DNA from: Vicugna vicugna
Lineage: Eukaryota
Direction: 5' to 3'
DNA length: 34,573 bases
Assembly (NCBI GenBank): GCA_013265495.1
Contig: PNXW01003605.1
Span: 1 to 34,573 of the forward strand
The first letter of the stretch is position 1. Every line of letters begins with the position of its first letter. The notes beneath the pieces were generated by a model. It had not been told where the DNA came from and searched no databases. It saw only the letters and a list, made by a program, of their open reading frames with translations. Shown here piece after piece: positions 1 through 34,573 of this stretch. The position numbers and the translations under genes are program-made.

Positions 1-59
1 GGGCTCACGGAGCCCTCAAAAGCCTTTGGGTTGGGGTGCTCAGAGCACTAGGGGGCACT
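1..59. repeat. Left arm (inner edge, cut by the window) of the outer inverted repeat flanking the EMD-FLNA block
   Basis: Bases 1-59 are the reverse complement of 34515-34573 with one mismatch (pos 46 vs 34528). Similarity stops inward of position 59 and runs off both window ends. Confidence 0.9.
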
Positions 60-2334: not shown

Positions 2335-4160
2335 TCAGGGGTCCGCCCAGAAGGGGTTGCCATCCTCGGCCTGCATGGAGTAGTAAACAAAGAGCAGGAA
2401 GGCAGCGAAGACCAGGAACAGTAGCATCTGACCCCAGAGTGGGACCTGGCGCTCCTGACCCAGACCAGCCCCAGGGGCCTGCTTTTCGGGCCGGATGGCA
2501 CGGCGCGTGAGCCACGAAGGTGGGGGAGATGAAGATGAGGACACTGGAGAGGTAGAGGAGGAGGTGGGGTAATAGGACAGGCCCAGGGAGCTTCTGGAGA
2601 CGTTGGAAACGGGGCGGTAGTGTGCGATGCTCTGGTAGGCACTGTCCCGACCATACACGGGGCGCTCCCTGAGGCAAAGAGGAAAGTGGATAGGTCAGGA
2701 GGGCCTGAGCCCAGAACCAGCCCCAGTCCCTGGCCCTCCCTACTACTCACCTATCCTTGCCTTCTTCTTCGGAAGAGAAAAGACTGTCATCGCGAACCTA
2801 CAGAAGTGAATCAGGGTAAAAAGATACTGCCTGGTGAGGTCAGCGTGGTCCTGTCACATCCCTTAATCCGAACTTCCCTGCCGAACCTACTCTGAATACT
2901 GCTTAAAAGCCGGGGCCTTGCCACCCTCCAGAAGCCTTCTCAGTTCCCGGCCTTATCTGTGGGGCCTTGCCACTTGCTCAGTGACTGTCCTGACTGCCTG
3001 CACCCTACTTTCTGCCCCAGGATTCTCAGAAAGAGCTCAAACCCAGATCCCAGACCAGAGTGTAGGGCATGTCCCAGGTCCTTTAGTCAGACAGTTGTGA
3101 CAGCCCCGCAAAGAAAGGTCCTGACTAGGCAGGCAACTGCTGAGCCCACCTCTCCCTGGAGGCTTAGGGCCACCCCGCAATGTATCCAAACCCAGCGATG
3201 ACCCCCTCAGGTTGTACCCAAGTATAGGGTGCCCGATGGCCAGCTCACCTGGTGGTGGAAGGTGTCAGCATCTGAGAGTGAAGCGGCGGGCTGGCGGAAG
3301 CCCTTGGATGTGCCTACAGACTCAGGCTCCCCGTAAGTCCTGGTGCTTAAGTAACTCTCCTCGTAGTAGTCATCGTTGTAGCCTTGGGAAGGAGGGGTAG
3401 CGGTAGCAGAAGGGGCAGCGGTGTCCCCCGCCTGGCGCGATGGCCCTAATCTGACGCCCACTTGGGGGCCTGTGACATAATTTCTCCCCTCCAAGGCCAC
3501 TATAGGACCATGGGGGTTGAGGTCTCAGGTTCTTCCTGACACCGGGATCCCTGAAGGAGTGGAACGAGGGTGCCAGGGTGCCCACCCCACCCTGGCCTTA
3601 CCCTTGCTCTGGTAAAGTAAAGCGTCCTCTTTCTTGGGCAGATCGTACATATCCGAGTCCACGGACGCCGCATCTAAGTCTGAATGGGGGAGGGGCCAGG
3701 ACCATTTGCTCCAGGCTCCCCTCCCTCTTCCCCGTGCCCCTCCCAACCAGCGGCCCCACCACACCCGCGAGACTCCTTCCTCCCCGTCGCCCAAAGCCTG
3801 TCCCCGTAGGCGGCCAGGTGGAGCTCTGCGGCGGGGGCCTTACCCGAGAACCGATAGGAGAAAGGGGATGCGGACGAGTTCGGGGGCGAGAGCCTCCGCC
3901 TCTGAGTCTCAAACTCGAAGATTTTCTTTTCGTAGAGCTTGCGCGTGGAACCTGGCCAGACAGGGGGCGCAAAGCCGTCAGGGGCGCGGGCTGAGAGCCC
4001 GGGGCAGAGCGGGGAGGGGGCGCGGGGCGAAATGCGGGGAGGGGGCCCGCCCGCAGCCCGCCGCCCGCCGCCGCGTACCCACGACAGGCCCGTGCGGGAT
4101 GTTGTACTGGCGCAGCACGGCGGCTAGCTCGGCGTCCGACAGGCCCGCGTAGTCGTCCAT
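2335..4160 (-). CDS. EMD: Emerin (LEM-domain inner nuclear membrane protein), 260 aa, 6 coding exons
   Basis: Exons (minus): 4160-4079, 3951-3844, 3679-3602, 3382-3249, 2797-2751, 2668-2335. All introns are GT-AG and the total is 783 nt in one frame. Translation: [42 protein letters not shown] (LEM domain) ... [28 protein letters not shown] ... [26 protein letters not shown] (TM) ... NPFWADP*. Confidence 0.98.
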
Positions 4161-5150
4161 GACGGGCAGCGGGCGGCAGAGGCCTAGGGGGTAGCCCGGG
4201 CCTGGCGACACGAGCCGAGCTACGGCTGCCTCGGAACGCGGCGGGGGCAGCGCCAGCGCCTCGGGAGCGGCTGGGCTCACGTCACCCCTGCGTCACGCTC
4301 GCGTCACAGCCGCGGTCTCTGCGGGCCGCGCGCGCTGCGCGGGGCGGAGACAGGCCCGGAGAACCGCCCGCGCAGACTAGTCGAGCCACGGGAACGGGCC
4401 GGGCGGGGCTGGCCAGCCCAGACGTCACAGACGAACGGGATTGGCTGGAGGCAAAAGACGGGCGTAGAGTGCGTCAGCGGCAAAACGGCGCAGACCAGTC
4501 CGGCCGTGGGAGCGGGCGGGGCTGCGCGCCTGGGAGAAGGGGCGGTGTCAGCGGGCCAAGCGTTGTCACACGCTAGCGCGTTCGGGCTTGACACGAGGAG
4601 GGGCGGGGCCTGCGCTCAAGGGGGACGGGCGTAGACCCGTGGGGACGTGGGAGAGGGGCGGGGCCGGCGAGCCGAGGCGTCACCCGCTGGGACATTCGGG
4701 TGAGAAGTGAGGAAGTGAGGAAGTGAGGAGGGGCGGGGCCCGAGGCAGTGAAACCGGCAGAAACTGGCTAGGACGTGGGAGCGGGGCCGGGCCGCGCACT
4801 AGTCGTGCTCGCCCTCTGTGAGTGACGTAGGCTCCGCTCAGTCCCCCCGCAGCCCTCGCGGTCCCCCTTCCCCCGAGATCCAGCGCTTGGGGGTCCCTGG
4901 CCGCGCCCAAGCCGGTCGCTCGGCAGCAGCATGAAGGGGCCCGATCTTAAGGGCAAGCCCTTGGAGAGCGCGGGTCCGGGCGAGGCGCGGCTGCCAGCGC
5001 TGTGCGCGCGTGCGCCACGCCAGCGGAGCCCGTGGCGCCCGGACCCCAGGCCGCCCCCCAGACCCCTTGCCCCAGCTGGCCTGCCCGCTCTGCACTGCCC
5101 TGGGCTGCGCACCTGCGCCCGCCGGTCCCCACCGCCTGCCTCCCTCCCAA
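3750..5150. promoter_or_regulatory. EMD: EMD CpG island and promoter
   Basis: Dense CpG. Repeated CGTCA/TGACG CRE half-sites (~4279, 4290, 4301, 4421, 4471, 4677, 4823), ATTGG CCAAT box at 4440-4444, several GGGCGG GC boxes, tandem GGAAGTGA ETS-like motifs at ~4703-4727. Boundaries are approximate. Confidence 0.8.
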
Positions 5151-5553
5151 CCCGCTCCACCCAGGAGGAAATGGGGCACTGGGCCAGGAGGCCACAGGCG
5201 ATCCAGGAGCAAGCAGCCCTGAAAGGGGCAGGACGTGCCAATGGGCAGTGGCAGAGGCCGCAGGGTGATGCATGCAGAGACAGCGAGTGTCCGTCTGACC
5301 CACCAGCAGTCCACCTGGGGCAGTAGGGGTTTCCTCTCCTGTCTGAATGGGCCCTGAACCCAGTGTGACCCAGGAGGTGGCCGGGCAGGGGTGGGGGGGT
5401 GTCTTCCAGACCCAGAGGGACCTGCGCAGTGGTTCCCTGAGGAACTGCTTGATGGGCTCTGTGCACCTGGGTCTGGGTGGGCTTCACTGTCACGTGGTGC
5501 AGAGGGGGCCCCTGGGACACAGGGGCCAGGGGACTGAAGGGGGCAAACCACCA
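4807..5553. repeat. Inner inverted repeat, left arm (~747 bp)
   Basis: Reverse complement of 10253-10999 with a constant coordinate sum of 15806, so no indels. Mirror ORFs translate identically in several frames (e.g. 4931-5326+ = 10480-10875-). One mismatch seen at 5544/10262. Confidence 0.97.
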
Positions 5554-6837
5554 AGGCCTGATGAGGAGTCTGGACAGTCACTAGGAGTTGGTGAGGACCT
5601 TGATCAGTGAAGAGCTGTCCCATGAAACTGCGAAGGAGGTGACAATCACATTCTAAACAAAGCTAGATGATGGAGTGTGGGGCCAACTGAAGTGCGCCTC
5701 CCAGACCTGGGAGCCTGGGGAGGGGAGGCCCCGTCCTGTCCTCGTAGATGACAGCTGGTAACAGAAGTGAGGAGGGCTCTGGTCAGATCCGGGCAGGTTG
5801 GCCCAGCTGGTGAGGGTCACTGTGGAGGTTTGTTCATGGGGTGAAGAAGATGTAACCATACAGTTAGTGGTGAGAAAATAGGGCCCTGATTTGACTACAC
5901 AGAGCCTCAGAAAATTTGCCCAAAAGTTGCAGGGTTTTCGAGTAAAGGTGAGGCCTACCATATCTCTGGAAGAGGACAAGGCGTGTGGGCCCCGAGACAT
6001 GCAAGGCAGTACGAAAGTCGGGAGAGCCCTAGGCAGGCAGGGTCTTGCTGCTTATCTTTCAGAGCAGGAAGGGAGATGGTGTCAGGGCTCTGGGCTGCTC
6101 AGAGTCTGCCTCATGGAATTTTAAGTTTTGGCAAGATCCAATTCCCCAGCACCTCTCCAAGCCTTCTTCTGCAATGCTGGCCCCTGTCCCGGAGGCTGTC
6201 CTCCCCCATGCCACCCCTCCCCATACAGATCCAAGCTGTTTCCTTATGAGGTCAAAGAATTCTAAGTTTGCCTTCTCCCCTAGGAACACCCCGTCCCCCG
6301 GCACCTACCTTGCCACTCTGCCTTTTATCCCCTCCTCCTCCAGTCACCCCAGTATGAGGTCCCACCACCAGTGGCACCAGGAGCCTGACTTGTGATGGTC
6401 CCCTGTGCCCAAGCCCACCTGGAGACCAAGTCCAGGTGCACTGCAGGCAGACCCATCCCAGACCACCAGAAAGCAGGAGAGCCCTTGACTGTCAGAGCCC
6501 AGAGGCCCTTGGCACCACCCTTATCACGATCACATAGTCGAGTAATTAGGGGCCCAGAGAGGGAGGAGACTTGCGCAAGGGCCCCGAGTGCAGCGATTCA
6601 TTCATGGATTGTTCCCCCAGTTGGTACCTAGTCCTGGGGTTATGATCTGGACAGTGTGGCCCAGAGAGGGTTCTGTGTCAGCAAATGGGCTATTGGGGGA
6701 AATCTGGGGCCTCAAGTGGAGTCTTCCTGGGAACAGGTGGGTAGAAAATTATAGGGAAAAATAATATCAACAAGAATACATTCCTCAGCATTCAGGTCCA
6801 AGGAGACAATTGTTCATTGAGCTGTTAATGTTTTCTT

Positions 6838-6967
6838 TTTCTTTCTTCCTTTTTTTTGGGGGGGTAATTAGGTTTATTTATTTATTCTAATGCAGGTACT
6901 GGGGATTGAACCCAGGACCTTGTGCATGCTAGGCATGCACTCTACCACCAAGCTATACCCTCCCCTC
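6838..6967 (-). mobile_element. tRNA-derived SINE, camelid Vic-1 type, full length with target-site duplication
   Basis: Minus strand reads GGGGAGGGTATAGCTTGGTGGTAGAG (A box) ... GGTTCAATCCCC (B box) ... AATAAATAAATAAACCTAATTACCCCCCC and an A-rich tail. Flanked by a direct repeat TTGAGCTGTTAATGTTTTCTT at 6817-6837 and 6968-6988. Family name is from recalled consensus similarity. Confidence 0.88.
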
Positions 6968-8179
6968 TTGAGCTGTTAATGTTTTCTTAAAGATCAGAAT
7001 CTTAATCCTTTGGTTCAATACAAAACTTAAGTTTTCTCTTCAAGGATGTTAAAAATCTTATAGGTTTTGCCTGGCAACAGAATGCTGTAAAACGTTGCTC
7101 AGATAGTAACAAAAGTCATAAGATGGTGAATATTGTGAAAATTAATGTGTAGGAGGTGGTCACAATTAATATGTACCAGTGAGTGATTAGCTGACCAAAA
7201 GCCTCTCAAAGAACGCCTTGTGTTCCAAGCCTAGAAGACACCAGTTTACCTTGGGACTATTGGCATGGCTAGTTGGAGATTCAGCTTGCCTTGATTCTAG
7301 TGGTTTTCAGGAACTTTCAACACAAGGAGGAAAGGTCTTTAATTTATTACGATCTTTACTAGAGAACAGCTGGTGCTTACAAACCTGCATTCCCTAGACC
7401 TGGAAGAAGTAGAGACCCAGAGATGCATGTGGGGAGCCTTGGCCAGGAGCTTTCTCCCTCCACCCTTTTTCTTTCTCTCCTTTAATGCAGTGGAATTGAA
7501 TAGGAAATGTCAGAGTCCTTTTCAGGTAGCAAGGGAAAGGCTCATTTTGTGAACCACCTGTTTCAGTAACTTGTGTCACCCTGTGTGTGTGCACACAAGT
7601 ACTGGCTCAGGATGTACAGTGTAGTTCTTATTGGGGTTTGTGGGCAAAAGGTTTAAGACACTGCTTTATGTGGCCTTCCCCAAGAAAGTGATACTTGCAT
7701 TGAATACGAAGCTACCAGGAAATAGGTGCATAGAAGAGGAAGAGGGAGCCTGGCAGTGCCAGGGTGTGGCTGTGCCCACCCAGTTCACAGACCCTTGGCT
7801 CTGTGGCTGCCCCACTACAACTGCCCACTCCTGGACTTAAGGACTGCACCTAACTGTGCTCCTGAGAATTCAGTCCGTCTCTGTTGCCCCCGCCCAGGCT
7901 TGGCACCCAGTAGGGGCCAAATCAGTGGCAGTCAGGATGCTAGCTCATCCCGGGTTTCAGGTCCCTGGTCCATGGCAGATTTTTGGCCGTAGGCGCTCAG
8001 TGAACACCTGCAACGGCCCGTTGCCCACCTCCACCCCAGACGGCAGACTCCGACTTGCCTGGCCAGCCCAGGCTTGAGGCAAGGGAAGGGAGCCATGACT
8101 ATGGGCCACCTGGAGGAGGTGGCCTTTCCTGCAACAGGGGCCCTGCAGACCCTCAGGGCTCTTGAGGAGAGCACCCCCC

Positions 8180-8620
8180 TCGCCAGTCGGTGAGCTCATA
8201 GGGCGGGGGGCGTCGCCAGGCGGCCGGGGCGCTGTAGCTCACGGCGCGCCCCCGCCCCCCCCCGCCCCCGCCCCCGGCTCCTGGGCGATTTTACCAATTA
8301 AGGCTTTCTCGCCGGGCCGGGCCGGGCCGGGCCGGGCGCGGGGCGGGGGTGCGGCCAACAAGAAGGCGGGCGGCGGCGGCCCATTCGCGTGGAGGCGCGC
8401 GGCGCGCAGCGGACGCCAGTGGAGCCCCGAGGCGCCCGGTGCGGGCTCACAGGCAAGCCAGGCGCCACCCCGTGGTCGCCAGCCGTCCGCAGGACAGCAG
8501 GTGAGGCCTCCGCGGCCGGCTCCGAGCGGGATGGTCACGGAGCTGCTCGCAGACCGAGGGCGGGGGTGGCGAAGTCCGGCGGCGAATCCTGAGAACTCAG
8601 GCGCGGGCGCGCACCTAGGC
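8180..8620 (+). promoter_or_regulatory. FLNA: FLNA upstream promoter CpG island
   Basis: CpG-dense, with GC boxes, a (GGGCC)n run at 8313-8337 and a perfect CArG box CCAATTAAGG at 8294-8303 about 80-90 bp before exon 1. Confidence 0.85.
8383..8500 (+). other. FLNA: FLNA non-coding exon 1 (5' UTR)
   Basis: Starts ATTCGCGTGGAGGCGCG, resembling the recalled human FLNA mRNA 5' end. Ends in a strong donor CAG|GTGAGG at 8500/8501 and splices to the acceptor TTTCCGTAG|CGCAACC at 11362/11363. The TSS is approximate. Confidence 0.82.
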
Positions 8621-9389
8621 CGGGGCCAGGTGCAGCTGGGGTGCCTTCCCTTGGGGCCGACTTACCTGGTTTACCTGAAAATCTGTGTGTGCCTGGGAGT
8701 GTGGGAGCCCTAAGTCATGGGGGTCCCTGACAGAGGGGGAGTCTGAGCGTTTGGCAGGACACAGGCTCTCCTGCGCGCCGGTGAGCTGGCCACTGCATGG
8801 CTATCTGGGAAGGAGGGGCCCAGAGAGCAGGACATTGTGTGGGCTGAGGGCGAGTGGCCACGTGGAAGGACAATTCACAGCCAGTATGCTTCCTGGGAGG
8901 GCGACAGTGGGCTCCTCGCTGGCACCAGTCCTCTAGGTACCAACTGCTTTGGGCACAGGGAGTTGGCTGCCAGGCTGCTGTGCTCTGTGGGAGGTCAGGC
9001 AGGGGTGTGGCCCACACAGGAAGCAGGGGCTCCTCCAAGAGGCCAGATTCCCAGGCTGGGTCCTGTCCCAGGTTGGCTCAGAGCTGGATGTTCACTGCCA
9101 GCCAGGATGCAAGCAGCAACATCCCCAGATTCCCATGCCACCTGGGTCCAGGAGAAGTAGGTGAAATCCGATGGGAGAGCCACCAGTGTGTGCTCCAGGG
9201 TGCAAGTCAAGATGGGAACTCAGGACTTAAGTGCCCTCACCTGCCATCTGGACTTGCCTTAGTGGCCCATCCTGCCATTCTTCGACTTTCTTCACCAGCT
9301 GAATCGCCCCTGTGGGAGGGCCTGGCCTGGGGTCTGAGGACTGGGGGTGGGGTGGGAGGCGGAGTGTATCTAACATCCAAGAATCTACT

Positions 9390-9399
9390 CCAAATAAGG
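9390..9399. promoter_or_regulatory. CArG box (SRF site) CCAAATAAGG, FLNA intron 1
   Basis: Perfect CC(A/T)6GG match. Confidence 0.55.
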
Positions 9400-10081
9400 G
9401 AAAATATGAAAGAGCTGGATTTTGGCTTCCAGGGACTGCTGGATCTGGGGGCTTTGGGATGGGGCGCCATCTGGTGGTGATACGACGTCCCCTAGGAACA
9501 AGAACCTTCTACACCCCCATCCTTTATCACCCCCAAATAGGGAAAACCTAGGGCTGGAAGCCAGGATGCAGATTCGGTCCCCTTTTCTGCTGCAGTTGGC
9601 TACTGGTCACTTACTCTGACTCAGTGTCCCTGCTCTCTGAAGATTAAGGAGTGAACACAGATGACCCAATTGGATGGCACTTATAAAAGTGAAAATCAGT
9701 TCTCAGTGGAACTCTCTCCTTGGGAACTTGCTTTCCAGTGGGACAGAGGAAGCAGGACAAGTCTCATCTCCTCTTGAATGGGGCCTGGTAGGGAGAAGTC
9801 CCCCCTCTAAAGGTTTCCCTCCCACCTACACTCCAGATCCCAGACACCGTGGTGTGGAATTTTGTGCAGGTGTGTCTGAAAGTGGTCAGGAGAGGAGAGT
9901 GTACAGGTGAGCCTCAGACTGAAAAATGTCATTTGGAACCCCTACCACCACCATTGGTGAGGAAAAACCAGTGGGGTGACAGGCAGCCCCTAAGTGAGCA
10001 TGCAGGAGGGCAGGGGAGACTCTGGCTGGGACTACAGCCCCACTGTGGGTGATGTAGACACCGCAGGTTGTGCGGCGTCAA

Positions 10082-10091
10082 CCATATTTGG
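10082..10091. promoter_or_regulatory. CArG box CCATATTTGG, FLNA intron 1
   Basis: Perfect CC(A/T)6GG match. Confidence 0.6.
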
Positions 10092-10252
10092 GCATGACAT
10101 GCCAGCTGACCCAGGGCCTCCTCTCCCACCGCTCTTTAGCAGATAATTTAGTTAATACTAGTCTGCAGCTCAATCTAAGAATCAAGCAGGAGGGGCAGAG
10201 ACATGCTCCTCAGACACAGGCCACACTCCTCAGCAGGCCTTGGCAGCCGTCA

Positions 10253-10999
10253 TGGTGGTTTACCCCCTTCAGTCCCCTGGCCCCTGTGTCCCAGGGGCCC
10301 CCTCTGCACCACGTGACAGTGAAGCCCACCCAGACCCAGGTGCACAGAGCCCATCAAGCAGTTCCTCAGGGAACCACTGCGCAGGTCCCTCTGGGTCTGG
10401 AAGACACCCCCCCACCCCTGCCCGGCCACCTCCTGGGTCACACTGGGTTCAGGGCCCATTCAGACAGGAGAGGAAACCCCTACTGCCCCAGGTGGACTGC
10501 TGGTGGGTCAGACGGACACTCGCTGTCTCTGCATGCATCACCCTGCGGCCTCTGCCACTGCCCATTGGCACGTCCTGCCCCTTTCAGGGCTGCTTGCTCC
10601 TGGATCGCCTGTGGCCTCCTGGCCCAGTGCCCCATTTCCTCCTGGGTGGAGCGGGTTGGGAGGGAGGCAGGCGGTGGGGACCGGCGGGCGCAGGTGCGCA
10701 GCCCAGGGCAGTGCAGAGCGGGCAGGCCAGCTGGGGCAAGGGGTCTGGGGGGCGGCCTGGGGTCCGGGCGCCACGGGCTCCGCTGGCGTGGCGCACGCGC
10801 GCACAGCGCTGGCAGCCGCGCCTCGCCCGGACCCGCGCTCTCCAAGGGCTTGCCCTTAAGATCGGGCCCCTTCATGCTGCTGCCGAGCGACCGGCTTGGG
10901 CGCGGCCAGGGACCCCCAAGCGCTGGATCTCGGGGGAAGGGGGACCGCGAGGGCTGCGGGGGGACTGAGCGGAGCCTACGTCACTCACAGAGGGCGAGC
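10253..10999. repeat. Inner inverted repeat, right arm (in FLNA intron 1)
   Basis: Reverse complement of 4807-5553. Ends 364 bp before the FLNA exon 2 acceptor. Confidence 0.97.
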
Positions 11000-12160
11000 C
11001 ACCCCATCCCCCGCAGGAGCCGTGGGGAAGGAAAGTCCCTTGTATGGTGTGCCCGCTGGAGGCCAGGTGGTCCAGCGCCAGACACAGCTCAGCCTTTCCT
11101 CGTTGCAGCGTTTCCTGCAGCGCAGGCGCGAGACCGCAGGGCTTGGGCGCAATCTTGCCTACTTGGGGCCCAACGACCCTTCCTGGAGCCTGGGGGTCGG
11201 GTCAAAACCACCAGGGCGGAGGGACTCAGGGGGGCATTCCAACGGGCGGGGTGGGGCGGGGCGGGTGCGGCCCCGAAGCCCCACCCGCAGCCCCGCCTCA
11301 TGGCAGTTCCGCCTCCTAGTCCCGCCCCCTGCCCGCATTTAAAGGGCTCGCTCTTTCCGTAGCGCAACCTCTGCTGTCTGCATCGTCCCGGGCTCGCTGA
11401 GGTGCCTGCGACTTTAATTAAAGGGCCGTCCCCTCGCCTAGGCTGCAGCACCGCCCCTCGGCTCCTCGCGCCTCAAAATGAGTAGCTCCCACTCCCGGGC
11501 GGGCCAGAGCGCTGCGGGCGCGGCTCCGGGCAGCGGTACCGACACGCGAGACGCTGAGATGCCGGCCACCGAGAAGGACCTGGCGGAGGATGCGCCGTGG
11601 AAGAAGATCCAGCAGAACACATTCACGCGTTGGTGCAACGAGCACCTGAAGTGCGTGAGCAAGCGCATCGCCAACCTGCAGACCGATTTGAGCGACGGGC
11701 TGCGGCTCATCGCGCTGCTGGAGGTGCTCAGCCAGAAGAAGATGCACCGCAAGCACAACCAGAGGCCCACCTTCCGCCAGATGCAGCTCGAGAACGTGTC
11801 GGTGGCGCTCGAGTTCCTAGACCGCGAGAGCATCAAGCTCGTGTCAATCGGTGAGGGCGCGGGCCTCCCCGTGGCGCGGGGAGGGTGAGGGAGGGGGACT
11901 CCGTGCGTCTTCCCATCTCCCGGGGGCTGACCCCTGGCAGACACCCTCTTAAAATGCGGCGCTGACCCAGAGGCTCCAGGGGCCGCCCAGATGCATGTGG
12001 GCCTGGAGAACAAAGGCTCGCTGGCCAGCGGTGCGTGCGGACCGCTTGGCGCCCCGCCCGCCTGTCCCGGCTGGCCCACGCCCAGGCTGAGCTCACATCC
12101 TCCACAGGCCGCGCCCCCGCCGCTGCGGCCGCGGTGGGAGAGGGCCTAGTGGGGCGGGCA
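10650..12160. promoter_or_regulatory. FLNA: CpG island over the FLNA intron 1 end and exon 2
   Basis: CpG-dense, with a GC-box/G-run cluster at ~11244-11265 and TTTAAA at 11338-11343. Boundaries are approximate. Confidence 0.7.
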
Positions 12161-15100
12161 CTGGCCAAGCTCTGGCCCTGTGCCCAATGCCCCATCTCTA
12201 ACGAGGCGGAGGCCAGGGCTCTCCACCCCCTAAAGCAGTTTGGAGAGGGCAGTCTGGCCTTCAGGCACCCCTGTGGTTCCTAAACAGGGGATGGAGCTTG
12301 TGGGTTCCATTATCTAGGCTCCCCACCCCCGCTAAAGATAGGGGGCCTTAATTTAGATCTCCCCCTCAGAACTAGGGGGCCAGAGAGGACCATAGCTATT
12401 GAAAGACAAGGTGGGTCTGTGCGCTGGCTAGTGAAGGGAGCTGGCTTGTAGCCTACTTAGACACCAAGTTACTGTTGATTTCTGGCCAAACTCTTCCATG
12501 TAGGACTTGCCTTCCTGCATCTAGAATGCAGGAGTTGGTTGGAAGGTACTCCAGCATGTGCTGGGCTCACTGCCGGCCCGATGTCCGTGTCACTGGGCTA
12601 GTGAGGCTGGAACTGACCAGACCTACTGCATCCCAGGCACTTCTTAAGATGGGAACTGCTCAGGGACCGACACCAGAACTGGTGACTTGGGGAGGGGGCT
12701 ATGCAACAGGGAGGGAAGGGGCAAGAGGTGTTTGTTTTCAGAGGCCTTCCAGATGTCCCTTTGGCCCATGGTCCATGCTGAGCCTGGGAAGGTGAGGGAC
12801 GGAGACTCAGGTTCCCCCAACCACTCAGGGCAGGTCTCAAGGGCCCCACCACTTTCTTTGGAATGCACGTCGTTGAGGCCAAGGAGGCCCACCCCCCAGT
12901 CCCAGCCTCAGTCTAGCCAAGCTGAGTCATCTCTGAGCCTTGGGGGGGGGCAACCGGATGTGGGGAGGCGGGCCACACCCCAGTTGTCTGGGGGGGGTCT
13001 CGTCCTCCCCCTTCCCTTCTTCTCCTCTTGTGAGCTGGCTGGAGCAGGCCTAGTTCCCAGAGCTTTGCCATATAAGGCAAAAAAATGTTGGAAAGCAGCA
13101 GTGATTAGGGGAGGGAGGGGTCAGGCTGGCTGGGGGCTGGGGAAAGACTCTTTTGTGAGGTGGACAGGGAGGGCCTCGGCCAGCCTCCTTTGGACTAGGG
13201 GGAGGGCCCAGCCCAACCTACCAGGGCTGATGAGCTTGGCCTTGTGTGTCCTCTCATGGGTCACAGTGGGCCTCAGGCCTCCTGAGGTCTCCTGTACAAG
13301 ACTCAGGATCCTGGGGGTGAGAGCCTGGTGGGAGGCCCCAGCGGGTCCTGTGCTCTTGGTCTTCTCTGAACCTTCCAGTCACCCCTAGCCTGAAGTCCTC
13401 TCTCCACCCTCCCTTGCTTGCCATCGGGGGACAGCGTTAGGTAGTGGTGTGCGACCAGGAGCAACCCCAGTCCAGGAACATGCTTTGAGTAGCATGGCGC
13501 TGGTCCTCAAAGTGCTGCCTGCTGGATTCAGAGGCTGCCGCATTGATGGACCTTTCCGAGGCACTCATCCCCTTCTTCCCATTCCCAAGTTGACCCACTC
13601 GACAAGTATTTTCTCCTGATTATTGGGGGTAGAGGATGGAGCATGCCAGCAGGAATTTCAAAGATGAGTTGCCCTCTCCCATTCTTGGAGCACCACCCCC
13701 AGCCCCCAATCTCAGGAGGAGGCTGAGACCCAGAAGGGCCTTGGGTGGGGCTTAGAGCACAGAGAGGTTGCTATAGTGATGGGGTACAGGGTGCCCGCCC
13801 TAACCACTTCCCCTGTGGTGAGCTTGGTGGCCACCAGCTCTCAGCCCAGTGGCCCGTTAGGTGGCGAGAACAGGCAGCAGCCGAGCACGCTCCGCTGAGG
13901 CAGCGGGACTTGGGGACCCCACCCATGACTTCTGCCACCCAGGCTCCCGAGCTGAGCCCTGGGCGCCCAACACAGGCTCGCTGGCTTTGCTCCCCCCACC
14001 TCCTCATCCTCCTCCTCCTCCTCCTCGGGCTGGGTGAGGGGCCCCTGGAATGTGTCCTGCCCATCATCCTGGCTGGCAGGCTATCCCTGCTGGGCCCCAG
14101 TGAGTCAGGGCCCTGCAGTCCAACCACTGGTTCCTTGGGGCTCCCAGCCCCTCCCTTGCACCAGGCCTGCTGCCCAACTCCCAGCTGGGCTCTGGGGGGA
14201 GGGGGAGCACTGAGGAAGTGGTGGGGGGTGGGTCTCGCACCCTCCACCCAAAGGGTCCTTGCTTAACACCTCTGCTTTCCCTGCCCCATGCCGTCCACCC
14301 ACTCACCCTGGGGCAGCAGTTGTATTTCCCAACCGCCCCACCAGCCTGCCTTCCCCTTCCTCAGTGCCAGGTCAGGGGCTCTGGCATTGAGGCCTGCTGG
14401 GGCCTGGCTGTTCCTCCTGCCCATTCTCTGGAGACCCCTGGAGATGGGTGGTGGGCTCGTGTGTGGGCAGCTGTGGCGTGCTCATCGGACTCACTCTCCA
14501 GAGCCACCATCTTTGGGGAAGGGGACTCCTCCAGAGACCTCCCCTGGCCCTGTCTGCAGCCAAGCTCTGTCACATGTCCTTCCTCTAGGGCCCCACAGCC
14601 TCGGCTTCTGGCATCACCCCCTCACTGTACTGTATCATCACCATTTGCCCATGGGTGTTTTCCCTTCGAACCTGCTTCACGCCCTTGCAGGGGCCCTGGG
14701 CAGAGAGGGCCCCACCCCACCCTGCGAGGGCCTCTCTCTCCTCCCTGGGGCCCGCTGTGCTCCACACAGCAGTGCCTGGGAGTGGCCTGCCACCCTGTGT
14801 GTGCATGTACACATGTGCACAGGGACGCCCACGGAGGCCCCTGCCTGCCCAGCGCTGCCACTCCTTTCCCTCACAGACAGCAAGGCCATCGTGGACGGGA
14901 ACCTGAAGCTGATCTTGGGCCTTATCTGGACCCTGATCCTACACTACTCCATCTCCATGCCCATGTGGGACGAAGAGGAGGATGAGGAGGCCAAGAAACA
15001 GACACCCAAGCAGAGGCTTCTGGGATGGATCCAGAACAAGCTGCCACAGCTGCCCATCACAAACTTCAGCCGGGACTGGCAGAGCGGCAGGGCCCTGGGC

Positions 15101-18100
15101 GCCCTGGTGGACAGCTGTGCCCCAGGTGAGGGGCGTGGGCGTGCTGGGGCAGACCGGATGGCCCACCAGGAAGTTCTGTGGGCCCCCGACTCACCACCTT
15201 CCTCGTGCCTCAGGCCTGTGTCCTGACTGGGACTCCTGGGACGCCAGCAAGCCTGTGAACAATGCACGGGAAGCCATGCAGCAGGCCGATGACTGGCTGG
15301 GCATCCCTCAGGTACACCCCTGCTTGACCACTTGGGGCCATCCAGGGGCCGAGATCCCGGTGGGGGTCAGTGGCACGCCCCAGGAACCTGAGACTAGAGG
15401 CTAAATGGCCCCTGTCTTCTGCCCATGGCAGGTGATCACTCCTGAGGAGATCGTGGACCCCAATGTGGATGAGCACTCCGTCATGACCTACCTATCCCAG
15501 TTCCCCAAGGCCAAGCTGAAACCAGGGGCTCCCCTGCGGCCCAAACTGAACCCGAAGAAAGCCCGAGCCTACGGGCCAGGTGAGGGAGCCAGGCAGCAGT
15601 GGGTGCTCCTGGGCGACGCCCTCCTCCCTGCGGGTCAGTGTCCTCTCTAAAGATGAGTCTTGAGTCACGTGGCAGCAAGGTTATTAAATGCCCCCGAGAG
15701 TCAGGCAGGAGTGGGTTGAGGGAGGAAGGACCCGTCCGCCTTACTGCGGTGGAGATGAAACCCAGCCCAGGGCATCATACAGGAGTGAGGGCCCAGGCAA
15801 ACACTGGGGCACGTTCCAGAAAACGGGCCCAGGCCTGTCCCACGGCAGGAGCGCAGCTGGGACCTAAGGCTCTGTGCGCTGGGGTTTAAGCTGAACTGAC
15901 TCGCGTGCACAGAGCGTGCCTGCTGGGGCTGCGCTGGGGAGGGGGCGGCGCTCACAGCCTGCGCGGGCCTTTCGCGCCCTCCCCCGGCAGGCATCGAGCC
16001 CACAGGCAACATGGTGAAGAAGCGGGCAGAGTTCACTGTGGAGACTAGAAGCGCTGGCCAGGGAGAGGTGCTGGTGTACGTGGAGGACCCGGCTGGACAC
16101 CAGGAGGAGGTAGGGCCGACGGCATGTGGGGCAGGTGCCACTGTGCCTTCGCTGGCAGGGGCCACTCTCAGCCAGAGCTCACAGGCTCCTTTCCACCTTA
16201 GGCCAAGGTGACAGCCAATAATGACAAGAACCGTACCTTCTCTGTCTGGTATGTCCCCGAGGTGACGGGGACTCACAAGGTGAGCCCTCAGGCCAAGGGG
16301 AAGCTGGTGGCGAGGGCAGCTGCTGTAGGGCCCCACCCCGCCCTCACGTCCTGCCCCTCCTGCGAACAGGTCACTGTGCTCTTTGCCGGCCAGCACATCG
16401 CCAAGAGCCCCTTCGAGGTGTACGTGGACAAGTCCCAGGGTGATGCCAGCAAAGTGACTGCCCAGGGCCCTGGCCTGGAGCCCAGCGGCAACATCGCCAA
16501 CAAGACCACCTACTTTGAGATCTTCACGGCAGGTGAGGGGAGGGTACTGAGGCTGCAAGGTCTGGGGGTGGGGCCGCTGGGGCCTGGAGGCTCTGGGAGC
16601 TGAGATGGTACCTTACGGTAGGCGCTGGCACGGGTGAGGTGGAGGTCGTGATCCAGGACCCTGCTGGACAGAAGGGTACTGTGGTGCCTCAGCTGGAGGC
16701 CCGGGGCGACAGCACGTATCGCTGCAGTTACCAGCCCACCATGGAGGGTGTCCACACGGTGCACGTCACCTTCGCTGGCGTGCCCATCCCTCGCAGCCCC
16801 TACACTGTCACTGTTGGCCAAGGTAGGCCAGTCCTGGCTGTCACATGCTGGGCCATTGCAGCCCAGGCCTCCCTTGGGAGGGAGGCAGCCGGGGCAGGTC
16901 CCTCTCCATCCAGCCCCTGCCCCATCTCCCTGGGTTGTCTGTGCTTCCACTGTCTGGGCGATGTACTCTCTCTCTATTCCCCTTCTGGGGCCCCTCCTCC
17001 TCTTCCACCTCTTGCCCGTCTCCATCTCTCTCTCTCTCTCCACGCTTTCATCTTCGGAAGAGCTCGCTCCAGTTGTCTAGAAACCTGCTGCTCTCTGCTC
17101 TGCCCGCAGGGTCAACGGTACTTGGATCTGTCTTCCTCTGGGAGGGGAGGGCTGGGCTGGAGGTGGGGGACAGATGCAGATGGAGCAGGTGGGAGGAGGC
17201 CTGACATGTCCTGGCCTTGGCCACAGGTCTTAGGGTCACAGTCCGTTCTGGTTCTTTCTTGCGCATCCTTCCCCACCCTCTGTGGCCTGATGGTCCAGCC
17301 ACGTGGGAGGCAAGGGAAGGGTTGCCTAGCTCCAGCTCCCAGCAGCTCAGCTGGCTCTCTGCTCACAGCTTGTAACCCAGGTGCCTGCCGTGCTGTCGGC
17401 CGGGGCCTCCAACCCAAGGGCGTGCGGGTGAAGGAGACTGCTGACTTCAAGGTCTACACGAAGGGCGCGGGCAGTGGGGAGCTGAAGGTCACTGTGAAGG
17501 GTCCCAGTAAGTTGACCTGCAGCTGGGGTGGGCAGTGCTGGCCCCAGGCCACTGCCGGCCAGGCCTGAGGCCCTTCCTCGTCTGGCAGAGGGCGAGGAGC
17601 GTGTGAAACAGAAGGACCTGGGGGACGGCGTCTATGGCTTCGAGTATTATCCCGTGGTCCCTGGCACGTACATCGTCACCATCACGTGGGGAGGCCAGAA
17701 CATCGGGCGCAGGTGAGGCTGTGGGCAGAGCGCTCAGAGGTGGTGCTCTTCTCCCCTGTGGGTTTCGGGCAGGCTGCTGTCCAAGACGGGGTCCCTCAGC
17801 CCTTCCTGATGTGGCTCTCTCCTCGCAGCCCCTTCGAGGTGAAGGTGGGCACTGAGTGTGGCAATCAGAAGGTGCGGGCCTGGGGCCCTGGGCTGGAGGG
17901 AGGCGTCGTTGGCAAGTCAGCCGACTTTGTGGTAGAAGCCATCGGGGACGATGTAGGCACCCTGGGTGAGTTGGAGGCTGCAATGTGGGTGCCTGGGGGG
18001 CAGAGGGTGGCGAGGGCCACCCTTCCAAGGCTCTGGGACACTGATGGAGCTGGCGGCTGTTGTCAGGCTTCTCGGTGGAGGGCCCATCACAGGCCAAGAT

Positions 18101-21100
18101 CGAATGTGATGACAAGGGCGATGGCTCCTGTGACGTGCGCTACTGGCCCCAGGAGGCTGGCGAGTATGCTGTGCACGTGCTGTGCAACAGTGAAGATATC
18201 CGCCTGAGCCCCTTCATGGCAGACATCCGCGAAGCCCCCCAGGATTTCCATCCAGACAGGGTAAAGGGCATGTGCCGCTGGCCCAGGTCTCTGACCTCCT
18301 TCTACCTCTGCGTAGGGGCTGGGCTGGGGGCAGGAAGCCTGGGCTGGTATCCCCGGTGGTGTGCTCCTGCCACTCTGTCTACGGGGGCCTGCACTTGGTC
18401 TCCTGAGATCTGGGTGGCCTCCCATTAGGTGAAGGCACGTGGGCCCGGATTGGAGAAGACAGGTGTGGCTGTCAACAAGCCGGCGGAGTTCACGGTGGAT
18501 GCCAAGCACGGTGGGAAGGCTCCTCTCAGGGTCCAAGTGCAGGTCAGGTGCCCACTCATGGGGGTGGGGTGGGCAGGTGCCCAGGCCTGGGTACTGACTA
18601 GGAGGCCACCTACTACGCCTGCCTTCCAGGACAATGAGGGCTGCCCTGTGGAGGCATCAGTCAAAGACCACGGCAATGGCACTTACAGCTGCTCTTATGT
18701 GCCCCGGAAGCCTGTGAAGCACACGGCCATGGTGTCTTGGGGCGGCGTCAGCATCCCCAACAGCCCCTTCCGGGTGAGCCTGCCCTCTGTGGGCCCCGAA
18801 CTGGCCTGGAGCCTGCTTCCCTAGGGTGCCTGCTTTGTTCTCATCCAGCTCTGTTCGATAGAACTTGAATAGCCTACAGCTGACCCCTCTTGAATGTACA
18901 CCTCGGTAGTTTTGAGTAAGTTCAGAGTTGCGCAGCCATCACCACATCAAAGAGGAAGACGTTTTCGCCATTCCTAAGAGAAACTCCTCCACCCGCTAGC
19001 GCCTCACCCCTCACCCCCGCCCAGCCCTCAGCAACCCCTCATCTGCTTTCCTATAGGAGGTGGCCTTCTGTTCCTGGCTGCTTTCACTCAGCATCCCCTT
19101 TTGTGCTTCTGCCTTTTTATGGCTGACCAGCACTCCGTTGTACGGAGAGACCATGTTTTACTTATCTGGTCATTTGTTGATGGACATTTGGGATTTTCTC
19201 ACCTTTTGGCTGTTGTGAACAGTGCCGCTGTGAACGTTCAAGTACAAGTGTTTGTGTGGATGAGTGATCTTGTTTTTCTGGGTGGACAGATTTCACATCT
19301 GAGTGGAATTGCAGCAGTATGTACTCACTTTATGTGTAATCGTTTGAGGAACCACCAGATGACTTCCTGAGGTGGTTGCACCATTTTGCTTGCCTCCTGA
19401 TGGTGGGTGAAAAAGCCCCAGTGGCTCCTGCAGGCTGGTCATGCCCCTGCGCTTGCCCCATGCCCTGCAGGTGAACGTGGGAGCAGGCAGCCACCCAAAC
19501 AAGGTCAAGGTGTACGGTCCAGGAGTGGCCAAGACAGGGCTCAAGGCTCACGAGCCCACCTACTTCACTGTGGACTGCACGGAGGCCGGCCAGGGTAAGG
19601 CCCCGCCTCAAGAGTGGGTAGGCGAGTGGGCAAGGCATCTCTGTGAGTCCCAGCCTCCACCCCCTCCCCCACTACAGGCGACGTCAGCATTGGCATCAAG
19701 TGCGCCCCTGGCGTAGTGGGCCCCACCGAGGCCGATATTGACTTTGACATCATCCGCAATGACAATGACACTTTCACAGTCAAGTATACACCCCGTGGGG
19801 CTGGCAGCTACACCATCATGGTCCTCTTTGCTGACCAGGTGGGTGCTGCTGCTCCCGGTCCCTCACTCTGCTGGGTGTTGGGGTGCTGCCCCCCTCTCAG
19901 TCTTTCCCCTCCCACCCACTGCAGGCCACGCCCACCAGCCCCATCCGTGTCAAGGTGGAGCCCTCCCATGATGCCAGCAAGGTGAAGGCCGAGGGCCCTG
20001 GTCTCAGTCGCACTGGTGAGGACGAGTACCGTGTGGGGAGGTCGCGGGGCAAGACCCAAGGTACCCCTACAGGGTCTCTCACTGTGTCTCCTCAGGTGTT
20101 GAGCTTGGCAAACCTACCCACTTCACGGTCAATGCCAAAGCTGCTGGCAAAGGCAAGCTGGATGTCCAGTTCTCCGGGCTGGCCAAGGGGGACGCGGTGC
20201 GTGATGTGGACATCATTGACCATCATGACAATACCTACACTGTCAAGTACACTCCCGTGCAGCAGGTAGCCACCCGGCCCCCTGTCGCTGCACCTTCCAC
20301 CACACCTGCTGAGCCTTTGGGCCTCCTCGCTTGGTGGGCTTGGTGGGCAGCTCTAGGGGCCTTCCCACACACTCTTGTTTCCTACCTGGGAGGGAGTGGG
20401 CATGGGAGTCTGGGGGGCAGTGGGAGAGCAAAGCCAGTGTTTCTCTGATGTCCCCTCCCCATGCCCAATTTCAGAAGCCATGGGCCAGGGAGACCAAAAT
20501 CATGACCCATGACTCTGCCTTCTGTACCCCTCCCAGGGCCCAGTGGGCATCAATCTCACTTATGGAGGGGACCCTATCCCCAAGAGCCCCTTCTCAGTGG
20601 CGGTGTCTCCAAGCCTGGACCTGAGCAAGATCAAGGTGTCCGGCCTGGGAGAGAGTAAGTAGTTGTGTTCCTGGTCACAGTCACTGAGAACATGCCCTGG
20701 GGCTGCCTGGGTAGGGCGGCACGGTTCTCTCCCTCTTTTCATCATCTCAACAGAGGTGGATGTTGGCAAAGACCAGGAGTTCACAGTTAAGACGAAGGGT
20801 GCTGGTGGCCAAGGCAAAGTGGCCTCCAAGATCGTGGGCCCCTCTGGGGCAGCAGTACCCTGCAAGGTGGAGCCAGGCCTGGGGGCTGACAACAGTGTGG
20901 TGCGTTTTGTGCCCCGTGAGGAGGGGCCCTATGAGGTAGAGGTGACCTACGACGGTGTCCCTGTGCCCGGCAGCCCCTTTCCTCTGGAAGCTGTGCCCCC
21001 CACCAAACCTAGCAAGGTAATTGGGTTTTGGGGGGCCACCTCATCTTCTCTAGACTTACCCTCACCCTTTCTCGCTTTTGTCCTTTTGAGCAATGGCCCT

Positions 21101-34514: not shown

Positions 34515-34573
34515 AGTGCCCCCTAGTCCTCTGAGCACCCCAACCCAAAGGCTTTTGAGGGCTCCGTGAGCCC
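34515..34573. repeat. Right arm (inner edge, cut by the window) of the outer inverted repeat
   Basis: Reverse complement of 1-59 (58/59). Confidence 0.9.

What the first reader, a model, noticed from the sequence alone, without database searches (positions are those of the whole stretch)
4807..10999. Near-perfect 747-bp inner inverted repeat brackets the FLNA promoter and exon 1: candidate invertible promoter cassette between EMD and FLNA
Seen: 4807-5553 and 10253-10999 are reverse complements with no indels and one mismatch found. The 4.7-kb spacer (5554-10252) contains the FLNA CpG promoter, non-coding exon 1 with its splice donor, and three perfect CArG boxes. Known: homologous recombination between near-identical inverted repeats of several hundred bp inverts the spacer. 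Inference: in the flipped state the SRF-type FLNA promoter and exon 1 would point at EMD, possibly splicing to the EMD exon 2 acceptor at 3951, while FLNA would lose exon 1 and rely on the exon-2 CpG island. That would be a DNA-level promoter switch between two cytoskeleton/nuclear-envelope genes. I know the large outer FLNA-EMD duplication, but I do not recall a description of this smaller inner one and cannot verify that it is new.
Basis: partly seen in the sequence, partly recalled or inferred. Interest (0 to 1): 0.9.

Follow-up and report, generated by a model that had tools for sequence, protein, structure and literature searches.

The report
Small inverted repeat bracketing FLNA promoter
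Two almost identical 747-base copies in opposite orientation really do flank the filamin A promoter and first exon next to the emerin gene, but this looks like an ordinary inverted duplication that could occasionally cause a damaging flip, not a designed genetic switch.

Summary
4807-5553 and 10253-10999 are reverse complements, 746 of 747 bases alike, with no indels. These are the only two copies in the 2.03-Gb assembly.

The arms lie 646 nt upstream of the emerin ATG and 363 nt upstream of the FLNA exon 2 acceptor. The 4,699-nt spacer holds a CpG island, a consensus donor at 8500/8501 and three CArG boxes.

Homology runs 34 nt further inward at only 28/34 identity, after a 12-nt insert. An assembly copy error would not leave this. 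It fits either an old repeat homogenised by gene conversion or a template-switch duplication seeded at a short homeology.

One copy sits in intron 1 and one upstream of the promoter, the same geometry as the 1,041-bp int1h repeats behind the F8 intron 1 inversion. I read it as a latent substrate for homologous recombination. A flip would cut FLNA's promoter and exon 1 from its coding exons, and any FLNA-exon1-to-EMD-exon2 RNA would lack emerin's start codon.

I found no evidence of flipping.

Verdict: a new member of a known kind, of modest interest.

The parts
4807..5553 (+). Arm 1 of the inner inverted repeat. It lies upstream of the EMD promoter. Its outer, CpG-rich end faces EMD, with 646 nt between the arm and the emerin ATG.
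   Evidence: 746/747 identity to arm 2; only two copies in the assembly. for CpG content and the distance to the ATG at 4160.
10253..10999 (-). Arm 2 of the inner inverted repeat. It lies inside FLNA intron 1. Its outer, CpG-rich end faces FLNA exon 2, 363 nt from the acceptor and 478 nt from the ATG.
5554..5587 (+). Diverged inward extension of the homology on the left side. It matches its right-side partner at 28/34 with a 1-nt gap.
   Evidence: Score 20; 0 of 1000 shuffles reached it (maximum 14); Gumbel p about 5e-6.
10206..10240 (-). Diverged inward extension of the homology on the right side.
10241..10252 (.). 12-nt insert with no counterpart at arm 1. It separates arm 2 from the diverged extension.
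5554..10252 (.). The 4,699-nt spacer that a recombination between the arms would invert.
   Evidence: Its two ends are single-copy in the assembly.
8201..8600 (+). CpG island taken as the FLNA upstream promoter plus non-coding exon 1. The exon would end at the donor CAG|GTGAGG at 8500/8501. A CArG box lies at 8294.
   Evidence: The exon call rests on sequence inspection only; there is no RNA evidence.
9390..9399 (+). CArG box in the spacer part of FLNA intron 1.
10082..10091 (+). CArG box in the spacer part of FLNA intron 1.
11363..11850 (+). FLNA exon 2. The acceptor is ccgtag|CGCAAC, the ATG is at 11478 and the donor is at 11850/11851. GC boxes and a TTTAAA element lie just upstream (about 11240-11346).
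   Evidence: One search matches Filamin-A 2wfn_A residues 1-125, E 1.2e-77.
4079..4160 (-). Coding part of EMD exon 1. The ATG is at 4160-4158 and the donor lies after 4079. The exon 2 acceptor is at 3952/3951.
   Evidence: One search matches the Emerin LEM domain 6ghd_G, E 2.4e-8.

Best explanation
This is a genuine germline inverted duplication of about 0.75-0.8 kb, nested in the spacer of the large FLNA-EMD palindrome. One copy sits upstream of the FLNA promoter, abutting the EMD promoter. The other sits in FLNA intron 1, just upstream of exon 2. The arms are 99.87% alike for one of two reasons that I cannot separate: arm-to-arm gene conversion keeps an older repeat homogeneous, or the duplication is under about 1 million years old and arose by a template switch seeded at a short homeologous stretch.

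It works as a passive substrate for non-allelic homologous recombination, not as a programmed switch. A crossover within the arms would invert the 4.7-kb spacer. Inferred consequences of such an inversion:
- FLNA's upstream promoter and exon 1 would be detached from exons 2 onward. The geometry matches the F8 int1h/intron-1 inversion.
- FLNA would depend on the promoter-like GC-box/TTTAAA region at exon 2.
- Promoter-1 transcription would run through the identical arm into the EMD promoter and gene.
- A transcript spliced from FLNA e1 to EMD e2 would lack emerin's ATG.

I therefore expect the flipped allele to be rare and selected against on this X-linked essential gene, and the canonical orientation seen in the assembly to be the norm.
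For: Shown:
- 746/747 identity with sharp ungapped borders.
- Exactly two copies in the 2.03-Gb assembly. The own-genome search does detect true dispersed repeats: the SINE at 6780-7100 gave 2594 first-look candidates. The inner flanks are single-copy.
- A diverged 34-nt inward continuation at 28/34 follows a 12-nt insert. 0 of 1000 shuffles reached its score; Gumbel p about 5e-6. Nothing further is detectable, either deeper inward (p 0.09) or outward (p 0.51).
- Divergence is heterogeneous: 1/747 against 6/34 mismatches, Fisher p 3e-8. A mechanical assembly copy would not produce this.
- Gene positions and identities.
- The stretch 4400-11400 is held at 0.95-0.99 of 683 sampled words by 14 DNA-like runs in 6 studies, under two organism labels. 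Nine of the 14 are not flagged as a possible source.

From papers (passages only):
- Human NAHR inversions use IRs from 654 bp (PMC6748972).
- The outer FLNA-EMD inversion recurs at about 6e-5 per generation (10.1101/2021.12.20.472354).
- F8 Inv1 arises from a 1041-bp repeat in intron 1 and an extragenic copy (PMC7098248).
Against: - No read-level confirmation.
- The sampled-word shares cannot verify them either. By my arithmetic only about 6 of the 683 words would span the two junctions of one arm, so a run lacking one arm would still score about 0.99.
- The window is a small stand-alone contig ending in unresolved repeats, and the arms are GC-rich. Both are settings where assemblies err.
- No orthologous locus could be examined. 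The age, the ancestral copy and gene conversion all remain untested.
- The 'old repeat' reading rests on 34 sites.
- Exon 1 and both promoters are called from sequence features only.
- The claim that a flip would be deleterious is an inference from FLNA biology and the F8 analogy.
Confidence: 0.62

Rival explanations
1. Assembly artefact. One arm is a false inverted copy placed by the assembler or polisher in a GC-rich, hard-to-assemble region of a small unplaced contig. The real genome has only one copy.
For: The window is an entire 34,573-b contig whose ends are themselves unresolved inverted copies, found on no other contig. The arms are 70% G+C. No reads could be laid to verify the junctions.
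Against: Both arms are embedded in unique sequence and there are no Ns. The copies differ at one base. Beyond arm 2's inner edge lie a 12-nt insert and then 34 nt of diverged (28/34) homology to the sequence beyond arm 1, which a mechanical copy would not create. A 4.7-kb unique spacer is not the usual false-palindrome signature (established knowledge, not tested here).
Confidence: 0.12
2. A polymorphic or recurrently toggling inversion. The spacer exists in both orientations among individuals or related species, as the outer FLNA-EMD inversion does, with little or mild fitness cost because FLNA can use the exon 2-proximal promoter.
For: Arm length and identity lie within the range of human recurrent NAHR inversions, 654 bp to 24.2 kb at over 90% identity (PMC6748972). 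If the repeat is old, repeated conversion implies repeated arm-to-arm recombination. GC boxes and a TTTAAA element directly upstream of exon 2 could serve as a second promoter.
Against: The assembly holds only one orientation and no alternative contig. A flip removes FLNA's CpG-island promoter and exon 1 and mimics the pathogenic F8 Inv1 geometry. The arms are about 15 times shorter than the human outer repeats, so the rate should be much lower (inference).
Confidence: 0.12
3. One reading: a functional DNA-level promoter switch. Flipping, somatic or germline, is used to redirect the SRF-type FLNA promoter to EMD.
For: Only the geometry. The promoter-like CpG island, the exon 1 donor and three CArG boxes lie in the invertible segment. 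After a flip, promoter-1 transcripts would read the identical arm and then enter EMD (derived from the coordinates).
Against: The arm ORFs gave no Pfam match (0 families in 4 ORFs), and I know of no mammalian site-specific system of this kind. The arms are 747 nt, not short recombinase sites. EMD keeps its own promoter and its ATG-bearing exon 1, so the chimeric RNA would skip the start codon. FLNA would lose its upstream promoter. No orientation or RNA data could be obtained.
Confidence: 0.03

Closest known systems
F8 int1h-1/int1h-2 repeats and the haemophilia A intron 1 inversion (Xq28)
   Same: A roughly 1-kb repeat (1041 bp) has one copy in intron 1 and one copy outside the gene. Intrachromosomal recombination inverts the segment carrying the promoter and exon 1 and prevents full-length mRNA (PMC7098248, passages). 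Here one 747-nt arm lies in FLNA intron 1 and the other upstream of the FLNA promoter.
   Different: The F8 copies are 140 kb apart; here they are 4.7 kb apart. The F8 inversion is documented in patients; here no inverted allele has been seen. In this case the ATG is in exon 2 and a second promoter-like region lies next to it, so the loss might be partial (inference).
The large outer FLNA-EMD inverted repeats (human X palindrome P24) and their recurrent inversion
   Same: Same locus. Near-identical inverted arms whose recombination flips the intervening DNA. The inversion recurs in humans at about 6e-5 per generation and across eutherians (10.1101/2021.12.20.472354; PMC8327919). The window's own ends, 1-59 and 34515-34573, are the start of such outer arms.
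   Different: The outer arms are about 11 kb in human (recalled from Small 1997, which I did not see). They flip both whole genes without breaking either. The inner arms are 747 nt and would cut FLNA between exon 1 and exon 2. The inner repeat is nested inside the outer spacer, and I found no description of it.
Human polymorphic NAHR inversions flanked by small inverted repeats (the InvFEST/HsInv set)
   Same: IRs over 90% identical, from 654 bp to 24.2 kb, with mostly recurrent inversions (PMC6748972).
   Different: Those are defined by the observation of both orientations. Here only one orientation is known.
Bacterial invertible promoter switches (fimS, hin-type phase variation)
   Same: A promoter sits inside a DNA segment bounded by inverted repeats, so orientation decides which gene is driven.
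   Different: Those use short repeats and a dedicated site-specific recombinase, and they flip at high, regulated rates (established knowledge). Here the arms are 747 nt, no recombinase is present, and any flip would depend on general homologous recombination.

Membership tests
NAHR-competent inverted repeat pair (inverted low-copy repeat or small palindrome) | Two copies on the same chromosome in inverted orientation | tested here: met
NAHR-competent inverted repeat pair (inverted low-copy repeat or small palindrome) | High identity over several hundred bases or more. Known human cases are over 90% identical and at least 654 bp. | tested here: met
   746/747. The range comes from PMC6748972.
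NAHR-competent inverted repeat pair (inverted low-copy repeat or small palindrome) | Both orientations of the spacer observed among individuals or species | not testable with these tools
All listed runs are kept as short-word contigs that cannot span a 747-nt arm. No orthologous loci were reachable.
NAHR-competent inverted repeat pair (inverted low-copy repeat or small palindrome) | Arm-to-arm gene conversion (concerted evolution) | tested here: inconclusive
   1/747 against 6/34 mismatches, Fisher p 3e-8, fits conversion of an old repeat. It equally fits a young duplication seeded at a short homeology. Other species are needed to decide.
Segmental duplication in the conventional sense | At least 1 kb long at 90% identity or more (conventional threshold, recalled) | tested here: not met
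   The arms are 747 nt, or 781-794 nt with the diverged extension. The repeat would be missed by standard segmental-duplication tracks.
Programmed invertible promoter switch (site-specific recombination) | Short recombinase-bound inverted repeats and a cognate recombinase | tested here: not met
   The arms are 747 nt. The 4 long arm ORFs gave 0 Pfam families. The rest of the window is FLNA and EMD.
Programmed invertible promoter switch (site-specific recombination) | Both orientations coexist and each drives a productive transcript | not testable with these tools
From the sequence, the EMD-ward chimera would skip emerin's ATG.
Transposon with terminal inverted repeats, or composite transposon | Multiple genomic copies, target-site duplication, and a transposase between the repeats | tested here: not met
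   Only the two arms exist in 2.03 Gb. The bases flanking the outer ends share no direct repeat. The spacer holds the FLNA promoter region and a SINE, and no transposase was seen.

The most novel reading that the evidence does not exclude
The inner repeat is an old mini-palindrome, kept alike by gene conversion and nested inside the spacer of the FLNA-EMD palindrome. Like the outer repeat, it toggles recurrently among individuals or related species. This would produce X-linked alleles in which the CArG-bearing FLNA promoter and exon 1 face EMD while FLNA runs from its exon 2-proximal promoter. That would be a natural promoter-swap polymorphism between a cytoskeletal gene and a nuclear-envelope gene.
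Probability: 0.07. Interest if true: 0.7.

Novelty: new member of a known kind. Interest (0 to 1): 0.3.

Why it matters
If real, this species carries inside FLNA-EMD the same kind of architecture that causes the F8 intron 1 inversion in people. It is a sub-kilobase inverted repeat, below the 1-kb cut-off of segmental-duplication catalogues, positioned to separate an essential X-linked gene from its promoter. That makes it a concrete, testable candidate for a recurrent loss-of-function or expression-altering allele of FLNA. It is also a small natural system for asking how short and how close inverted repeats must be to stay homogenised and to invert. It is not evidence of a new regulatory mechanism.

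Tried and rejected
1. Laying public reads or contigs on the spacer plus arm 2. It was counted and the cap is one. Junction support, orientation in other individuals and FLNA-e1 splice partners therefore remain untested.

2. Run listing. Fourteen DNA-like runs hold 0.95-0.99 of the sampled words, and five RNA runs hold 0.20-0.40. None was laid. The shares cannot show junctions, orientation or which parts are transcribed, so I draw no expression or habitat conclusion from them.

3. Orthologous loci. A metagenome-contig scan with the FLNA exon 2 peptide returned 2 loci at 64-65% identity, which are not mammalian FLNA orthologues and were not used. A genome-contig scan returned none. Caceres et al. 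2007 is not held.

4. Older, longer homology around the arms. There is none beyond the 34-nt inner extension.

5. Arm as a coding or RNA element. The 4 long open frames across the arms gave 0 Pfam families at E <= 0.1. I attribute their length to C-rich composition. Rfam at gathering score gave only a tRNA-like hit in the spacer.

6. Arm or flanks as dispersed repeats. Rejected.

7. Earlier notes of this scan. Five look-ups returned nothing on this locus. The 'FLNA' word search returned only unrelated algal findings.

8. Sampling the assembly for a background rate of near-perfect inverted repeats. I considered this and dropped it. At most 2 Mb could be fetched, too little to detect a realistic artefact rate.
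Full report
**The observation**

The repeat finder on the whole window reports one long inverted pair, 4807-5553 and 10253-10999. Each arm is 747 nt and 4699 nt lie between them. A base-by-base comparison finds a single mismatch, 5544 C against T in the reverse complement of arm 2 (position 10262). There are no indels, and the ungapped flanks on both sides match only at random level.

The window is the whole of contig C1642 of a 2,026,803,740-base, 12,405-contig assembly. A search of that assembly with the arm finds exactly the two arms and nothing else. The same search method does see true dispersed repeats: the SINE-like stretch 6780-7100 gave 2594 first-look candidates, and 40 of the 40 scored matched elsewhere. 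The 600 nt inside each arm border are single-copy.

**The surroundings**

- *FLNA.* On the plus strand an open frame with ATG at 11478 matches the first 125 residues of human Filamin-A chains (2wfn_A, E 1.2e-77). It is preceded by an acceptor, ccgtag|CGCAAC, at 11362/11363 and followed by a donor at 11850/11851.
- *EMD.* On the minus strand the ATG at 4160-4158 opens 27 codons that match the emerin LEM domain (6ghd_G, E 2.4e-8). The donor follows 4079 and the next acceptor is at 3952/3951.
- *CpG islands.* Three are present: about 3800-5200 (EMD), 8201-8600, and 10600-12200 (FLNA exon 2).
- *The middle island.* It ends in a consensus donor CAG|GTGAGG at 8500/8501 and carries a CArG box at 8294. 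Two more CArG boxes lie at 9390 and 10082. The window has 4 against 1.14 expected from 100 shuffles, and 1 of 100 shuffles reached 4.

Reading the middle island as FLNA's upstream promoter with non-coding exon 1 is reasonable, but it rests on sequence features only.

Arm 1's outer edge therefore lies 646 nt from the emerin ATG. Arm 2's outer edge lies 363 nt from the FLNA exon 2 acceptor and 478 nt from the FLNA ATG. Arm 2 takes up 747 of the 2862 nt of FLNA intron 1.

Because the genes are head to head, each gene sees the arm in the same orientation upstream of it, with the arm's CpG-rich end nearest the gene. This follows directly from the coordinates.

**A new detail at the inner border**

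Gapped alignment carries the homology inward. After arm 2 comes a 12-nt insert (10241-10252) with no counterpart. Then 5554-5587 aligns to the reverse complement of 10206-10240 at 28 of 34 bases with one 1-nt gap.

- None of 1000 shuffles reached the score of 20 (maximum 14), and a Gumbel fit gives p about 5e-6.
- Nothing further is detectable deeper in the spacer (p 0.09) or outside the outer borders (p 0.51).
- Mismatch density is 1/747 in the arms against 6/34 in the extension (Fisher p 3e-8).

Taken at face value with a neutral rate of 1-2.2e-9 per site per year (my assumption), the extension's Jukes-Cantor distance of 0.20 would mean tens of millions of years. The arms' distance of 0.0013 would mean 0.3-0.7 million years. 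With only 34 sites this is a pointer, not a date.

Two readings fit:
- An old repeat of about 0.8 kb whose main body is kept alike by gene conversion, while the 34 nt cut off by the 12-nt indel drift freely.
- A young inverted duplication made by a replication template switch that was seeded at a short pre-existing homeology and left a 12-nt junction insert.

Either way this feature argues for a biological origin. A mis-assembly that copied one arm would not also create diverged homology beyond it.

**Artefact or real**

I could not obtain read-level proof. The run search found 14 DNA-like runs under two organism labels in 6 studies. They hold 0.95-0.99 of 683 sampled words of 4400-11400, and 9 of the 14 are not flagged as a possible source. 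All of them are kept as short-word contigs.

By my arithmetic only about 6 of the 683 words would span the two junctions of one arm, so these shares cannot discriminate between one arm and two.

The points that favour an artefact are the small stand-alone contig, its unresolved ends (1-59 and 34515-34573 match at 58/59 and occur on no other contig) and the 70% G+C of the arms. I put the artefact at about 0.12.

**How it most likely works**

The arrangement has one copy in intron 1 and one upstream of the promoter. This is the arrangement of int1h-1 and int1h-2 at F8, where a 1041-bp repeat in intron 1 recombines with an extragenic copy and abolishes full-length mRNA (PMC7098248, passages).

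Repeats of this size are recombinogenic. Human polymorphic NAHR inversions use IRs from 654 bp to 24.2 kb at over 90% identity (PMC6748972, passages). The outer FLNA-EMD inversion recurs at about 6e-5 per generation (10.1101/2021.12.20.472354, passages). One preprint abstract reports it even in somatic cells (10.1101/2020.04.20.051185, abstract).

I therefore read the inner repeat as a passive NAHR substrate. From the coordinates, a flip would have these effects (inferred):
- It would turn the 8.2-8.5 kb promoter and exon 1 toward EMD.
- The transcript would read the same 1.75 kb of intron and the same arm sequence as before. It would then read the EMD promoter and EMD exon 1, which has no acceptor, and then reach the exon 2 acceptor.
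- A chimeric FLNA-e1/EMD-e2 RNA would lack emerin's ATG.
- FLNA would be left with the GC-box/TTTAAA region directly upstream of exon 2.

For an essential X-linked gene, the expected result is a deleterious or at best hypomorphic allele. This is an inference from established FLNA genetics and the F8 analogy.

Nothing points to a regulated switch. The arms are long repeats rather than recombinase sites, the arm open frames have no family match (0 of 4), and only the canonical orientation is present in the assembly.

**Comparison with what is known, and novelty**

The literature I could search describes only the large outer repeats:
- PMC8327919 (passages): FLNA and EMD lie in the spacer of palindrome P24. 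Inverted repeats flank them in 15 further mammals but are not all orthologous.
- PMC3961182 (passages).
- PMC8719250 (passages): rearrangement breakpoints in FLNA intron 1 by microhomology, with no inner repeat mentioned.

Four searches found no description of a small repeat bracketing the FLNA promoter. Caceres 2007 and Small 1997 were not available to me, and a repeat under 1 kb falls below the usual segmental-duplication threshold (recalled).

I file this as a new member of a known kind. It meets the structural criteria of an NAHR-competent inverted repeat. It fails those of a site-specific invertible switch, a transposon and a formal segmental duplication. The defining observation of two orientations could not be tested.

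**Verdict**

- Observation: confirmed.
- A tolerated polymorphic toggle: possible (about 0.12).
- Best reading: a real, latent inversion substrate (about 0.62).

Interest is modest at 0.3. It would rise sharply if long reads showed both orientations, or if the repeat proved ancient and shared across mammals.

Noticed in passing
window 1-59 and 34515-34573: The window is an entire contig. Its two ends are inverted copies of each other (58/59), presumably the first bases of the large outer FLNA-EMD repeats. These 59 nt occur on no other contig of the assembly, so the outer arms seem to be unassembled or unjoined.
   Followed up: partly
window 6891-6962 (minus strand), within 6780-7100: A tRNA-Ala(AGC)-like sequence (Rfam tRNA, 42.1 bits; also called by ARAGORN). 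It is the head of a high-copy SINE, with 2594 first-look candidates in the own genome and matches at 82-92% identity. It is a SINE insertion in the AT-rich middle of the spacer, not a tRNA gene.
   Followed up: yes
window 11240-11362: Several GC boxes and a TTTAAA element lie 20-120 nt upstream of the FLNA exon 2 acceptor. They look like a second, exon 2-proximal promoter overlapping the acceptor region. No RNA evidence was available.
   Followed up: no
window 4270-4810 (minus strand): The EMD upstream region is built of recurring GC-box / CCCACG modules with several TGACG half-CRE sites, plus a (GTGAGGAA)x3.9 microsatellite at 4700-4729. The outermost 30 nt of the arm carry a similar TGACGTAG site, a weak hint that arm 1 may be the native copy.
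   Followed up: no
window 10058-11359 (plus strand) and 4771-5577 (minus strand): Unusually long stop-free frames (434 and 269 codons) run through the arms toward each gene. They have no Pfam match, and I attribute them to the C-rich composition of that strand.
   Followed up: partly
window 13068-13077: A fourth perfect CArG box lies downstream of FLNA exon 2, outside the invertible segment.
   Followed up: no
window 16442-32445: A seven-member direct-repeat family of 40 nt (GATGCCAGCAAGGT...GGCCCTGG) marks the starts of filamin Ig repeats in FLNA exons. It is ordinary internal repetition of the gene.
   Followed up: no
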